A stretch of 52,336 nucleotides of DNA from Candidatus Woesearchaeota archaeon (lineage in GTDB: Archaea; Nanobdellota; Nanobdellia; Pacearchaeales; GW2011-AR1), in contig CAZFDH010000001.1 in assembly GCA_964518155.1 (NCBI GenBank), positions 1 through 52,336 on the forward strand, in the 5' to 3' direction. Made by a program: the position numbers and the translations under genes. Below are positions 14,657 through 44,695 of the stretch, in pieces; positions within the stretch are counted from its first letter, which is position 1, and each line of letters begins with the position of its first letter. The notes below the pieces were generated by a model that saw only the letters and a list, made by a program, of their open reading frames with translations, did not search any database and was not told the origin of the DNA.

Positions 14657-14728
14657 GGCGGTTGTAGTTCAATGGTAGAACGTGTGACTGTGGCTCGCAA
14701 AACGAGGGTTCGATTCCCTCTTTCCGCC
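14657..14728 (+). tRNA. tRNA-His (anticodon GUG) with a genome-encoded G-1
   Basis: Hand fold: G-1, acceptor GCGGTTG, D arm GTTC-AATGGTA-GAAC, anticodon arm TGTGA-CTGTGGC-TCGCA, T arm GAGGG-TTCGATT-CCCTC and 3' strand TTTCCGC plus C73. The inner end of the acceptor stem is weak, with two U-U mismatches and one G-U pair. Confidence 0.75.
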
Positions 14729-14783
14729 CTTTCGAACTTAGCGAGAAAAGAGTGGGACAAGAAATTTATTTCGATCCGCCCTT
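14723..14783 (+). repeat. direct repeat of the tRNA-His 3' end (TCCGCCCTT at 14723-14731 and 14775-14783), period 52 nt
   Basis: Exact 9-nt duplication read directly from the sequence. The 43-nt interval between the two copies (14732-14774) is homologous to the tRNA-Trp trailer. Confidence 0.8.
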
Positions 14784-24261: not shown

Positions 24262-24332
24262 GGGTGCGTAGTTTAATGGTAAAATAGGCGGCTCCAGACC
24301 GCCAGCTGGGGGTTCGATTCCCTCCGTGCCCA
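24262..24332 (+). tRNA. tRNA-Trp (anticodon CCA)
   Basis: 71-nt hand fold. Acceptor is GGGTGCG/CGTGCCC with two G-U pairs. D arm is GTTT-AATGGTA-AAAT, anticodon arm is GGCGG-CTCCAGA-CCGCC, T arm is GGGGG-TTCGATT-CCCTC and the discriminator is A. There is no intron at 37/38 and no encoded CCA. Confidence 0.85.
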
Positions 24333-24385
24333 TTCGATAAGAAAGCATGGAGCAAGAAATCTTTGATTTCGACCTCCGTGCCCAT
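24321..24385 (+). repeat. direct repeat of the tRNA-Trp 3' end (CCTCCGTGCCCAT at 24321-24333 and 24373-24385), period 52 nt
   Basis: Exact 13-nt duplication read directly from the sequence. The 39 nt between the copies (24334-24372) are homologous to the tRNA-His trailer. Confidence 0.85.
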
Positions 24386-35005: not shown

Positions 35006-35077
35006 CGCCCCAACCGGGAATCGAACCCGGACCTCCTGCGCGACAGGCAAGTGTTCTAGCCACTAAACTATTGAGGC
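35006..35077 (-). tRNA. tRNA-Asp (anticodon GUC)
   Basis: 72-nt hand fold on the reverse strand. Acceptor is GCCTCAA/TTGGGGC, the anticodon arm is CTTGC-CTGTCGC-GCAGG, the T-arm region is CCGGGTTCGATTCCCGG and the discriminator is G. Confidence 0.85.
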
Positions 35078-35138
35078 CTCAATGTAAAAAACCTTAAGAA
35101 TCCTTGACGAAATTAATTTTTAAATCTTTTCGTAGAGA

Positions 35139-44303: not shown

Positions 44304-44313
44304 CTTTATATAT
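44304..44313 (+). promoter_or_regulatory. TATA-like box of the tRNA-Ser locus
   Basis: CTTTATATAT, with 25 nt between the box and 44339, the outer partial 5' copy of tRNA-Ser. It is more than 80 nt from the complete tRNA at 44395. Confidence 0.45.
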
Positions 44314-44338
44314 CGCAAACGCCCATAAATTTTATCGG

Positions 44339-44408
44339 GCCGACATCGCATAAGGCCTGGATCAAAGATCCGTCCGAAATGCTCCTAGGCTAAAGCCGAC
44401 ATCGCATA
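44339..44408 (+). repeat. direct repeat of the tRNA-Ser 5' end (GCCGACATCGCATA at 44339-44352 and 44395-44408), period 56 nt
   Basis: Exact 14-nt duplication read directly from the sequence. The spacer contains a GGATC-AAA-GATCC hairpin. Confidence 0.85.
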
Positions 44409-44475
44409 GTGGTATTGCATAAGATTGGAAATCTTAGCCCTCCGGGGCCCCAGGGTTCGATTCCCTGTGTCGGCG
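44395..44475 (+). tRNA. tRNA-Ser (anticodon GGA)
   Basis: 81-nt hand fold. Acceptor is GCCGACA/TGTCGGC, D arm is GCAT-AGTGGTA-TTGC, anticodon arm is TAAGA-TTGGAAA-TCTTA, the long variable arm is GCCCTCCGGGGCCC, T arm is CAGGG-TTCGATT-CCCTG and the discriminator is G. Confidence 0.85.
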
Positions 44476-44603
44476 TTCATAATATTGAACGAAGTGAAAT
44501 ATTACCTCATTTGGAATCGAACTAAGGGTTTCGTTCGAAACTGAAATTTCGGACGAGAGGGAACGAACAAAGTGAGTGAACTCCGATTCCCTGTGTCGGC
44601 GTT
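44458..44603 (+). repeat. direct repeat of the tRNA-Ser 3' end (CGATTCCCTGTGTCGGCGTT at 44458-44477 and 44584-44603), period 126 nt
   Basis: Exact 20-nt duplication. The second copy is followed by TTTT. The spacer holds a TTCGTTC/GAACGAA stem (44530-44536 / 44561-44567) and an inverted T-arm-like fragment, GGAATCGAAC (44513-44522). Confidence 0.85.
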
Positions 44604-44695
44604 TTCACAACAAAACAATGATTACTATTAGAAGATCTAAAGTTACCACTATAGTTCAATAAAAAAATATTTATACAAGCGAAACCTTGAGAAAT

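What the first reader, a model, noticed from the sequence alone, without database searches (positions are those of the whole stretch)
44304..44603. tRNA-Ser(GGA) is nested between extra copies of its own 5' and 3' ends, and the promoter is phased to the outer 5' copy
Seen directly in the sequence. A complete cloverleaf lies at 44395-44475. Its first 14 nt (GCCGACATCGCATA) recur exactly 56 nt upstream at 44339-44352. Its last 18 nt plus 2 trailer nt (CGATTCCCTGTGTCGGCGTT) recur exactly 126 nt downstream at 44584-44603, followed by TTTT. The only TATA-like box (44304-44313) is spaced from the OUTER 5' copy as the TATA boxes of tRNA-Val, His and Trp are spaced from their mature +1, and it is more than 80 nt from the inner tRNA. 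The primary transcript therefore probably starts at the outer copy. There are three readings. (a) The 56-nt and 126-nt segments are intervening sequences in the D-loop and T-loop regions whose boundaries are hidden inside the repeats, because removing either segment regenerates exactly the same mature tRNA. (b) The outer GCCGACA and outer TGTCGGC form a second acceptor-like helix that encloses the tRNA, in the manner of a processing stem. (c) The duplications are att-type scars from site-specific integration or recombination at the tRNA gene. The 3' spacer is structured (a TTCGTTC/GAACGAA stem around a GAAA...TTTC hairpin) and contains an inverted T-arm-like fragment, GGAATCGAAC. No integrase is present in the window, and I could not build a canonical bulge-helix-bulge motif by eye.
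Basis: partly seen in the sequence, partly recalled or inferred. Interest (0 to 1): 0.7.

Follow-up and report, generated by a model that had tools for sequence, protein, structure and literature searches.

The report
tRNA gene nested in insertion scars
A serine tRNA gene of an uncultured DPANN archaeon sits between orphaned copies of its own two ends, most likely left by short DNA insertions that each brought a replacement end; about a third of the tRNA genes sampled in related genomes show the same thing, which is unusual in scale but known in kind.

Summary
tRNA-Ser(GGA) lies at 44395-44475. An exact 14-nt copy of its 5' end lies 56 nt upstream, and an exact 20-nt copy of its 3' end lies 126 nt downstream. 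The only TATA box is phased to the outer 5' copy.

The locus is not unique. tRNA-Trp and tRNA-His in the window carry downstream copies of their 3' ends. In 13 non-redundant loci of related Nanoarchaeota/Pacearchaeota-type genomes, 11 of 30 tRNA genes carry such copies, and each copy matches its own tRNA.

Orthologous genes without the insertion have the same promoter directly against tRNA +1. This indicates that the outer copy is the old gene end. In one relative the outer copy is decaying while the inner gene is intact. [quoted passage not shown] One relative has gene-carrying cassettes bounded by the same kind of 3'-end copy.

Best reading: these are att-type insertion scars. The inner gene is the functional one and is cut from a long precursor. 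Two features are unusual and unexplained. The inserts are only 34-106 nt and lack an integrase. Each also contains an inverted copy of the duplicated end, and some share a conserved core.

The parts
44305..44312 (+). TATA box (TTTATATA) of the ancestral promoter. It is the only TATA-like box upstream of the locus.
   Evidence: The gap to the outer copy +1 is 25-26 nt. No TATA is phased to the inner +1.
44339..44352 (+). Outer (orphan) copy of tRNA-Ser nt 1-14. Interpreted as the original 5' end of the gene, still attached to the promoter.
   Evidence: Searches show the exact copy. Searches show orthologues in which the same promoter abuts tRNA +1 directly.
44353..44394 (+). 5' spacer, 42 nt. 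It holds the core AGGCCTGG (44353-60), the hairpin GGATC-AAA-GATCC (44359-71), GATCCGTCC (44367-75), and short stretches complementary to the outer copy (ATGC, GGC). It ends in GGCTAAA.
   Evidence: the core is shared with the L007 tRNA-Asp and L002 tRNA-Ser leaders; the leader folds at -15.6 kcal/mol, and 10 of 300 shuffles fold as well; it is not a tandem copy of the upstream DNA.
44395..44475 (+). Complete tRNA-Ser(GGA), the functional gene.
   Evidence: 57.9 bits.
44476..44583 (+). 3' spacer, 108 nt. It holds an inverted T-loop copy (44513-44522) and a local hairpin CGTTCGAAAC/ATTTCGGACG (44532-44555). The 3' arm of that hairpin is also a perfect complement of the 5' spacer stretch 44371-44380. 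GAACGAA is repeated at 44561-44567.
44584..44605 (+). Outer (orphan) copy of tRNA-Ser nt 56-73 plus TT, running into the T-run 44602-44605. This is the likely original 3' end and terminator.
   Evidence: An independent Logan contig, L001, covers it identically.
24333..24385 (+). The same phenomenon at tRNA-Trp (24262-24332): a 40-nt spacer followed by a 12-13-nt copy of the tRNA's 3' end (24373-24385). The copy is paired with GCATGGAG in a hairpin.
   Evidence: (0 of 300 shuffles fold as well).
14730..14783 (+). The same phenomenon at tRNA-His (14658-14729): a 45-nt spacer homologous to the Trp spacer, followed by a 7-9-nt copy of the tRNA's 3' end (14775-14783).

Best explanation
**What it is.** The locus is a tRNA gene that was hit at both ends by short DNA insertions. 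Each insertion carried a replacement copy of the gene end it displaced.

**Order of parts.**
1. Old promoter.
2. Old 5' end (nt 1-14).
3. A 42-nt filler.
4. The complete working tRNA.
5. A 108-nt filler.
6. Old 3' end (nt 56-73) and its T-run.

The inner cloverleaf is the functional gene. The outer copies are orphans.

**How it is expressed (inferred).** Transcription still starts at the old promoter, about at the outer copy. It probably ends at the T-run after the outer 3' copy. The tRNA is then cut out of a roughly 270-nt precursor by a 5' endonuclease of the RNase P type and by RNase Z.

**How it arose (inferred).** The insertions arose by att-type recombination at the D-loop and T-loop regions of tRNA genes. 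The recombinase would be supplied in trans, or recombination would run on short homology. The same process in this clade also places gene-carrying cassettes at tRNA 3' ends.

**Inverted copies.** Each filler contains an inverted copy of the duplicated end, so it folds into a hairpin with the orphan. These hairpins may keep the orphan from competing with the true acceptor strand.

**Shown versus inferred.** Shown: the anatomy, its recurrence in the clade, the promoter orthology, the absence of BHB motifs, and decay of an outer copy. Inferred: the transcript ends, the processing enzymes, and the recombination mechanism.
For: 1. **The outer copy is the ancestral end.** L007 and L004 share the promoter TTTATATAGCrGGATATAACTTCTTAAT..AA. 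In L007 it abuts tRNA-Ser +1. In L004 it abuts the outer copy.
2. **Presence and absence among orthologues.**
   - tRNA-Ser has the insert in the window, L002 and L004, but not in L007, L009 or L010.
   - tRNA-Asp has it in L007 and L016, but not in the window, L002, L004, L015 or L018.
   - The Tyr-like tRNA has it in L004, but not in L016 or L018.
3. **Copies match their own tRNA.** Examples are GCCGACATCGCATA, GCCCGAATCGCGTA, GCCCAGATCGCGTAG, TGCCTCGGTAGTTTA, CCCCTCTTAGCTCA, and nt 1-23 of tRNA-Arg.
4. **An outer copy decays.** The L207 initiator tRNA has the promoter-phased outer copy AGCGAG----AGCAG while the inner gene is intact. The Trp and His orphans look internally deleted.
5. **Gene cassettes use the same kind of repeat.** L007 tRNA-Asp is followed by a 544-nt segment and a 1.1-kb segment. 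Each carries genes and each ends in CTCGGTCGGGGCG(T).
6. **An insert can bring a promoter.** The L004 Ser spacer has TTTATAT 23-24 nt before the inner +1.
7. **No BHB.** Searches find none, while positive controls work.
8. **5' processing must exist.** tRNA-Asp in the window, L002 and L004 has an 8-16-nt leader. L207 tRNA-Met has a ~76-nt leader and no promoter of its own.
9. **The enzymes are plausible.** RNase Z is encoded in relatives at 311 bits. RNP-type RNase P is near-universal in Archaea (PMC6380272).
10. **The structure is real.** It is identical in independent assemblies: L004/5/6/12, L020-23 and L016/17.
11. **The literature describes the kind.** tRNA 5' or 3' termini are typical archaeal att sites, and integration leaves direct-repeat tRNA fragments (PMC3293823).
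Against: - No integrase, transposase or Cas1 was found in the window ORFs I scanned, nor among the precomputed Pfam families listed for genes in the fetched loci.
- The fillers are far too short to be elements (34-108 nt) and cluster tightly in size. Random deletion of proviruses would not give that.
- One site-specific integrase should not serve tRNA-Ser, Asp, Tyr-like, Arg and Met with different 14-nt identity blocks. Yet the Ser and Asp inserts share a core.
- The 14-nt 5' copies stop at A14 and do not include the D-loop. A classical tyrosine-recombinase overlap region would be expected to lie there.
- The inverted copies of the duplicated end are not a known feature of att scars.
- No free or attP form was found. 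Two viral-contig scans gave only chance hits.
- RNase P was not found in the sequence held. That result is uninformative because only a small part of each genome is held.
Confidence: 0.6

Rival explanations
1. **Local replication errors, not mobile DNA.** In this reading, template switching or snap-back synthesis at the palindromic tRNA gene ends made structures of the tandem-inversion-duplication type (X, inverted X, X). Later deletions trimmed them to the present short fillers. The working gene and its processing would be as in the best explanation.
For: - Every insert holds an inverted Watson-Crick copy of the duplicated end. Examples are UCUUAGC/GCUAAGA, CUCGG/CCGAG, CCACCTCG and GGAATCGAAC.
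- Sense and antisense strands fold equally well, at -202.5 against -205.9 kcal/mol summed. That fits inverted repeats at the DNA level.
- Spacers are enriched in exact matches of 7 nt or more to local sequence: 221 nt covered in inverted orientation against 102 expected, with a shuffle maximum of 204.
- The window tRNA-Asp has a perfect 14-nt palindrome across +1.
- No recombinase was found.
Against: - The spacers of the window Ser, L007 Asp and L002 Ser share a core that does not come from their tRNAs. The Trp and His spacers share a ~40-nt module. This argues for a propagated sequence.
- Spacers are not copies of upstream DNA.
- Most of the local 7-mer matches are AT-rich or low-complexity.
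- The gene cassettes in L007 cannot arise this way.
Confidence: 0.17
2. **A functional RNA architecture.** In this reading the outer copies and the complementary stretches are kept because the leader and trailer hairpins serve a purpose. In the window this would include the outer-outer helix and the 10-bp leader-trailer helix. They would guide processing, protect the transcript, or regulate folding of the tRNA. This corresponds to the first reader's reading (b).
For: - Leaders fold better than shuffles in all six cases tested (0-15 of 300 shuffles fold as well). The Trp trailer is beaten by none of 300.
- The strand that pairs with the orphan differs with the tRNA. It is GCAUGGAG for Trp and GUGGG for His, inside an otherwise homologous module.
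- The 10-bp leader-trailer complement has p of about 0.002.
- The centroid fold pairs the outer 5' copy with the outer 3' copy.
- The structures are fixed in populations.
Against: - There is no strand asymmetry and no excess of G-U pairs.
- The distance from the hairpin to tRNA +1 varies from 4 to 31 nt, read off the sequences.
- Orthologues do without the structure.
- No relative has both outer copies, so the enclosing helix is specific to this window.
- The outer copy decays in L207.
Confidence: 0.08
3. **True introns.** In this reading the 56-nt and 126-nt segments are spliced by the tRNA splicing endonuclease. Their boundaries would be hidden inside the repeats, and the outer copies would be the real terminal exons.
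For: - The promoter and the T-run are phased to the outer copies.
- Most tRNAs of the clade look leaderless, with a 23-nt gap from TATA to +1. A leader is therefore unusual.
- Removing one repeat period regenerates the tRNA exactly.
- EndA is encoded in relatives.
Against: - None of the 15 + 21 same-product splice-site pairs has a 4-bp central helix with flanking helices. The unrestricted scan of six precursors found no BHB site that yields a tRNA either.
- The same scanner finds h5-B-H4-B-h'2-3 motifs for four real introns in the clade.
- The relatives' EndA is a 170-aa single-unit protein. From general knowledge, that type needs canonical BHBs. The enzyme's specificity was not tested here.
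- The inner gene is always intact.
- The L207 outer copy lacks 4 nt and cannot serve as an exon.
- The L004 spacer has its own promoter for the inner gene.
Confidence: 0.05
4. **Decayed tandem gene copies.** In this reading each leader or trailer is what remains of a second, tandem copy of the whole tRNA gene. That copy would have lost its middle, leaving its terminal segment and degenerate arm-like hairpins.
For: - The L020 tRNA-Arg leader is 80 nt long, about tRNA-sized. Read by eye from the sequence, it can be drawn with three hairpins and a short closing stem.
- Spacer tails resemble shortened acceptor 3' strands, such as CUGGC against CUGGGC and UCGGC against UCGGGGC (my reading of the sequences).
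Against: - Infernal finds no tRNA-like hit in the L020 leader, even at E up to 10.
- Identity is 100% over the terminal 14-23 nt and near random beyond. Uniform decay would not give that pattern.
- Most leaders (48-71 nt) are shorter than a tRNA.
- The shared core between Ser and Asp leaders is not derived from either tRNA.
Confidence: 0.05

Closest known systems
att direct repeats left by integrative plasmids and viruses in archaeal tRNA genes (SSV-type and pNOB8-type integration; the tRNA-Thr 5' fragment of Caldiarchaeum subterraneum, PMC3293823)
   Same: - An intact, reconstituted tRNA gene sits next to an orphan direct repeat of its 5' or 3' terminal segment.
- The repeat is bounded by the tRNA end.
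- Presence and absence vary between related genomes.
- Tandem cassettes occur at one tRNA (L007).
   Different: - Only 34-108 nt of non-coding DNA lies between the repeats. Known cases hold a kb-sized element with an intact or partitioned integrase.
- The repeats are short, 7-23 nt against about 44 nt or more in the examples I know.
- Both ends of one gene are hit.
- Each insert holds an inverted copy of the repeat.
- Inserts in different tRNA species share a core.
Non-canonical archaeal tRNA introns and their transposition between tRNA genes (Thermoproteales; recalled from the literature, not tested here)
   Same: - Short non-coding insertions lie in the D-arm or T-arm regions.
- Related insert sequences occur in different tRNA genes.
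   Different: - Those introns form BHB or relaxed BHB motifs and interrupt the only copy of the exon.
- Here there is no BHB, and the displaced exon is duplicated, so the inner gene is uninterrupted.
Split, tri-split and permuted tRNA genes (Nanoarchaeum equitans, Caldivirga maquilingensis, Thermofilum pendens; recalled from the literature)
   Same: - A DPANN/Nanoarchaeota-type host.
- Pieces of tRNA genes are flanked by complementary sequences.
- Promoter design is leaderless.
   Different: - Here a complete gene is present.
- The 14-20-nt pieces are redundant copies, not needed halves.
- No BHB forms between leader and trailer.
Casposon integration at tRNA gene 3' ends with 14-15-bp target-site duplications (recalled; cf. 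PMC4779613 in the list)
   Same: - Six of the seven exact 5' copies are 14-15 nt.
- The L007 and L004 3' copies are 13-14 nt.
- The duplicated stretch is the terminal part of a tRNA gene.
   Different: - There are no terminal inverted repeats, and no Cas1 or PolB.
- Other copies are 7-9, 12-13, 17, 20 and 23 nt, so the length is not fixed.

Membership tests
Archaeal BHB tRNA intron | A bulge-helix-bulge motif (4-bp central helix, two 3-nt bulges, flanking helices) or a relaxed form at the two splice sites. | tested here: not met
   One search covered all same-product site pairs for the window Ser 5', Ser 3', Trp and His inserts. The best results were H=4 with h and h' of 1 or less, or H=3. One search ran an unrestricted scan on six precursors. 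One search recovered canonical motifs for four real introns as a positive control.
Archaeal BHB tRNA intron | The gene cannot give a functional tRNA unless the segment is removed by splicing. | tested here: not met
   The inner gene is a complete cloverleaf. The L207 outer copy is defective. No headless tRNA bodies were found outside the called tRNA genes in the twelve loci scanned.
Archaeal BHB tRNA intron | Cleavage by EndA and ligation are observed. | not testable with these tools
   This needs RNA-seq or an in vitro assay. EndA is encoded in relatives.
att-site duplication by an integrated element at a tRNA gene | A direct repeat identical to a terminal segment of the tRNA, bounded by the tRNA end, next to a reconstituted intact gene. 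| tested here: met
att-site duplication by an integrated element at a tRNA gene | Related genomes have the empty site, with the same flanks and no repeat. | tested here: met
   L007 against L004 tRNA-Ser, with the same promoter. The same holds for the Asp and Tyr-like orthologues.
att-site duplication by an integrated element at a tRNA gene | An element with an integrase gene, intact or partitioned, lies between the repeats. | tested here: not met
   The spacers are 34-108 nt and non-coding. No integrase family appears in the window ORFs scanned. The L007 cassette proteins matched no NCBIfam family. The only Pfam entry on record for them is DUF2283 on the 65-aa protein.
att-site duplication by an integrated element at a tRNA gene | A free or attP form of the inserted sequence exists elsewhere. 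| tested here: inconclusive
   The spacers are unique within the fetched loci. Viral-contig and metagenome pattern scans gave only chance hits. The patterns were narrow.
Transposon with fixed target-site duplication (casposon-like) | Constant duplication length, terminal inverted repeats, and a transposase or Cas1. | tested here: not met
   Copy lengths range from 7 to 23 nt. No TIRs were seen at the L007 cassette ends when I read them by eye. No Cas1 or transposase hits were found.
Split or permuted tRNA gene | No contiguous complete gene exists, and the pieces are joined through a leader-trailer BHB. | tested here: not met
   A complete gene is present. No BHB flanks the 10-bp leader-trailer helix.

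The most novel reading that the evidence does not exclude
The fillers may be a previously undescribed family of tiny non-coding insertion modules, 34-108 nt long.
- They would target the D-loop or T-loop region of tRNA genes in Nanoarchaeota/Pacearchaeota-type DPANN archaea.
- They would heal the gene by regenerating the displaced end.
- Each carries an inverted copy of that end.

On this reading they are either a new kind of tRNA-targeting mobile element or proto-introns. Proto-introns would be the first observable step by which duplicated ends and fillers could later become obligatory introns or split tRNA genes, once the inner copy decays.
Probability: 0.3. Interest if true: 0.8.

Novelty: new variant of a known kind. 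Interest (0 to 1): 0.55.

Why it matters
- **Origin of broken tRNA genes.** How archaeal tRNA genes acquire non-canonical introns and become split is an open question. The leading model invokes mobile elements that recombine at tRNA ends (PMC3293823).
- **A possible intermediate state.** This clade offers many loci caught in a minimal state. Both old and new gene ends are present, tens of nucleotides apart, with the promoter still on the old end. That makes the model directly testable by comparative genomics and RNA-seq.
- **5' processing in the clade.** The tRNA promoters look leaderless, as in Nanoarchaeum. Yet the clade must process 5' leaders of up to about 76 nt, including on the initiator tRNA gene found in L207.
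- **Annotation.** Standard tRNA finders report only the inner gene. They miss the orphan ends, the long precursor and the displaced promoter.

Tried and rejected
- **Exact-pattern scan of genome contigs with the tRNA body.** It found nothing. A degenerate pattern found 4 loci.
- **The single metagenome scan, using the spacer core.** It gave two GC-rich chance hits and was wasted.
- **Homologues of the 144-aa neighbouring protein.** None were found. Synteny was reached through SerRS and malic enzyme instead.
- **Tandem-duplication origin of the 5' spacers.** Rejected. The spacers do not resemble the DNA upstream of the outer copy.
- **Pseudo-tRNA reading of the leaders.** Infernal found no hit in the L020 leader, the one leader tested.
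- **RNA-strand-specific selection on the hairpins.** Not seen. Sense and antisense folds are equal.
- **RNase P RNA.** Searched for in 131 kb of relatives' loci and in the window, and not found. This is uninformative.
- **Hidden or disrupted tRNA-Ser genes near SerRS in L015, L016 and L018.** None were found.
- **Two viral-contig scans for the spacer cores.** About 90 hits each, none near a tRNA.
- **C/D-box, H/ACA, hammerhead and primer-binding-site readings of the spacers.** I considered these by eye and dropped them because the defining boxes are absent.
- **Close relatives of the window.** None exist in the databases. The best matches are 79% identity for SerRS and 71% for malic enzyme, so gain and loss over short evolutionary distances could not be studied.
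Full report
**1. Observation**

- ARAGORN and Rfam both call one complete tRNA-Ser(GGA) at 44395-44475, at 57.9 bits.
- Its first 14 nt recur exactly at 44339-44352.
- Its last 18 nt plus TT recur exactly at 44584-44603.
- Each string occurs twice in the window, against none in 100 shuffles.
- The outer 3' copy runs into the T-run 44602-44605.
- The inverted T-loop fragment at 44513-44522 is a perfect 10-nt complement of 44455-44464 (8 of 2000 shuffles).

Two things were missed.
- The 5' spacer stretch 44371-44380 is perfectly complementary to the 3' spacer stretch 44546-44555 (4 of 2000 shuffles).
- Two more tRNAs in the window have the same feature. tRNA-Trp has a 12-13-nt copy of its 3' end 40 nt downstream. 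tRNA-His has a 7-9-nt copy 45 nt downstream. Their spacers are homologous to each other.

The TATA box at 44305-44312 lies 25-26 nt before the outer copy. No TATA is phased to the inner gene.

**2. Host and relatives**

- The window is about 35% G+C.
- It encodes diphthamide synthesis enzymes and several aminoacyl-tRNA synthetases.
- The best SerRS homologues that carry a source name are labelled Nanoarchaeota or Pacearchaeota archaeon; the closest of all is 79% identical. This is a DPANN lineage with no close relative in the databases.
- Syntenic loci were fetched through SerRS and malic enzyme homologues and through a degenerate tRNA pattern.

**3. The phenomenon is clade-wide**

In 13 non-redundant loci there are 30 tRNA genes.

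Seven carry an exact upstream copy of their own 5' end:

| Locus and tRNA | Spacer length | Extent of copy |
|---|---|---|
| Window Ser | 42 nt | nt 1-14 |
| L002 Ser | 70 nt | nt 1-14 |
| L004 Ser | 38 nt | nt 1-15 |
| L004 Tyr-like | 34 nt | nt 1-14 |
| L007 Asp | 56 nt | nt -1 to 14 |
| L016 Asp | 50 nt | nt -1 to 14 |
| L020 Arg(TCT) | 57 nt | nt 1-23, to the end of the D-loop |

- An eighth gene, the L207 initiator tRNA-Met, has a degenerate upstream copy.
- Four genes carry a short-range copy of their 3' end that starts in the T-loop or T-stem. They are the window Ser, Trp and His, and the L009 Trp. The L009 copy is 17 nt long, follows an 86-nt spacer, and is followed by TTTT.
- Counting the window Ser once, 11 of 30 genes are affected.
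- Each copy matches its own tRNA, even where orthologous tRNAs differ. The Ser 5' ends, for example, are GCCGACA.., GCCCGAA.. and GCCCAGA...
- The structures are identical in independent assemblies from different samples. They are therefore real and fixed in the populations.

**4. Which copy is the old one?**

- L007 and L004 share the promoter TTTATATAGCrGGATATAACTTCTTAAT..AA. In L007 it directly abuts tRNA-Ser +1. In L004 it abuts the outer copy.
- Across the clade, most tRNA genes without an insertion have the end of the TATA box 23-26 nt before +1. That is a leaderless design (the window Val, His and Trp boxes were read by eye because the pattern missed them).
- In five of the seven exact 5' insertions, that spacing is kept to the outer copy. 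I read the L207 promoter by eye, and it is also phased to its outer copy.
- The outer copy is therefore the ancestral gene end. The spacer plus the inner copy is what was added.
- The L004 Ser spacer brings its own TATA 23-24 nt before the inner +1.
- In L207 the promoter-phased outer copy has lost 4 nt (AGCGAG----AGCAG) while the inner initiator tRNA is intact.
- The Trp and His orphans look like copies running from the T-loop to the 3' end, with internal deletions.
- Orphans decay and inner genes do not. A T-loop motif scan of twelve of the loci found no tRNA bodies that lack a good adjacent end.

**5. Not introns**

- I enumerated every splice-site pair that would regenerate the same tRNA, for the window Ser 5', Ser 3', Trp and His inserts. 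None has a 4-bp central helix together with flanking helices.
- An unrestricted scan of six precursors found no BHB site that would give a tRNA.
- The same scanner recovers canonical motifs (anticodon-stem helix of 5 bp, 4-bp H, h' of 2-3 bp) at the canonical position for the real introns of L009 Trp, L018 Asp, and the L004 and L016 Tyr-like genes.
- The L018 Tyr-like intron and the L020 intron were not recovered at the top of the ranking. The scanner's sensitivity is therefore not complete.
- The EndA of relatives is a 170-aa single-unit protein.
- In L207, splicing could not rescue the gene.

**6. Evidence for DNA insertion at tRNA ends in this clade**

- L007 tRNA-Asp is followed by a 544-nt segment. 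It encodes two small proteins, of 76 aa and 65 aa, the second carrying DUF2283. I read them as toxin-antitoxin-like, which is an inference.
- That segment is followed by the copy CTCGGTCGGGGCGT, then by a 1.1-kb segment that encodes a 307-aa protein with an N-terminal hydrophobic stretch, then by CTCGGTCGGGGCG and a T-run.
- L004 has an inverted copy of the tRNA-Asp 3' end 5.1 kb from the gene.
- The literature states that tRNA 5' or 3' termini are the typical archaeal attachment sites, and that integration leaves a reconstituted gene plus a direct-repeat fragment (PMC3293823).

**7. What does not fit a simple att scar**

- No integrase, transposase or Cas1 was found in the window ORFs scanned or in the cassette proteins.
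- The inserts are tiny and similar in size.
- The spacers of the window Ser, L007 Asp and L002 Ser share a core: AGGyCT, a hairpin, then GATCCGnCC. The same module therefore sits in different tRNA species in different genomes.
- Every insert also holds an inverted partial copy of the duplicated end. As a result, the orphan plus its spacer folds into a hairpin.
  - All six leaders tested fold better than shuffles (0-15 of 300 fold as well).
  - The Trp trailer is beaten by none of 300 shuffles.
  - L207 has the perfect 8-mer CCACCTCG.
- Sense and antisense strands fold equally well. The repeats are therefore Watson-Crick inverted repeats. They could reflect how the inserts were made, or selection to sequester the orphan strand.
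- Spacers show some excess of local inverted matches, but most of those matches are low-complexity.
- Spacers are not tandem copies of upstream DNA, are not repeated elsewhere in the fetched loci, and were not found near tRNAs on viral contigs.

**8. How it most likely works**

- Shown: the only promoter serves the outer copy.
- Inferred: the primary transcript runs from about 44337 to the T-run at 44602-44605. The tRNA is released by a 5' endonuclease and by RNase Z.
- A 5' activity must exist in the clade.
  - tRNA-Asp of the window, L002 and L004 has an 8-16-nt leader.
  - The L207 initiator tRNA has a ~76-nt leader and no promoter of its own.
- RNP-type RNase P is reported as near-universal in Archaea, and HARP as absent from DPANN (PMC6380272).
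- RNase Z is encoded in relatives at 311 bits.
- The outer-outer helix and the 10-bp leader-trailer helix are specific to this window, because no relative has both copies.

**9. Verdict**

- Reading (c) is the best supported, reading (a) is disfavoured, and reading (b) is incidental.
- In kind, this is the known att-type partial duplication of tRNA genes.
- It is unusual in four respects: the miniature size of the inserts, the lack of any recombinase, the built-in inverted copies and shared cores, and a frequency of about one tRNA gene in three.
- The origin mechanism remains unresolved.

Noticed in passing
window 24333-24385 and 14730-14783: The tRNA-Trp and tRNA-His trailers share a ~40-nt module (TTCGA..AGAAAG..TGGrrCAAGAAAT.TT..ATTTCGA). 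Each module is followed by a copy of that tRNA's own 3' end. The strand that pairs with the copy differs to match each tRNA.
   Followed up: partly
window 35070-35083 (tRNA-Asp 35006-35077, minus strand): A perfect 14-nt palindrome, ATTGAGGCCTCAAT, spans tRNA-Asp +1. The TATA box lies 39 nt upstream, which implies a ~16-nt leader, unlike the leaderless neighbouring tRNA genes.
   Followed up: partly
tRNA genes of the window and loci L002-L024 (table): In most tRNA genes without an insertion, the TATA box ends 23-26 nt before tRNA +1. For tRNA-His the distance runs to G-1. This is a leaderless promoter design like that reported for Nanoarchaeum equitans.
   Followed up: partly
window 14658-14729: By my reading of the cloverleaf, the tRNA-His acceptor stem has two U-U mismatches (U5-U68 and U6-U67). 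G-1 is encoded opposite C73.
   Followed up: no
L007 13109-14780: Two gene-bearing segments follow tRNA-Asp. One carries 76-aa and 65-aa (DUF2283) proteins. The other carries a 307-aa protein with an N-terminal hydrophobic stretch. Each segment is closed by a 13-14-nt copy of the tRNA's 3' end, in cassette-array style, with no integrase.
   Followed up: partly
L004 7133-7145: An inverted copy of the tRNA-Asp 3' end (TCGGTCGGGGCGT, followed by TTTT) lies 5.1 kb from the gene. This suggests a past inversion or relocation between att-like sites.
   Followed up: no
L004 19964-20111, L016 15349-15505, L018 16534-16721: A Tyr-like tRNA (anticodon loop CUGUAG) is labelled Asp or Asn by ARAGORN. It has canonical-position introns of 75-116 nt. 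L004 and L018 share GGUGGAGAUUCC...AUGAAACCUGAUAAG, and L016 has a related GAUGAAGCAUGAUAAGCC. This may be an intron-encoded small RNA.
   Followed up: no
L207 12829-12980 (minus strand): The initiator tRNA-Met has a ~76-nt leader. It begins at the promoter-phased, partly deleted copy of its own 5' end (AGCGAG----AGCAG). It also contains an 8-nt inverted copy (CCACCTCG) of tRNA nt 3-10.
   Followed up: yes
L001 (Logan SRR15237813 contig), equal to window 44560 onward: An independent short-read contig of the same organism starts inside the 3' spacer and carries the outer 3' copy identically. The contig break may be caused by the 20-nt repeat.
   Followed up: partly
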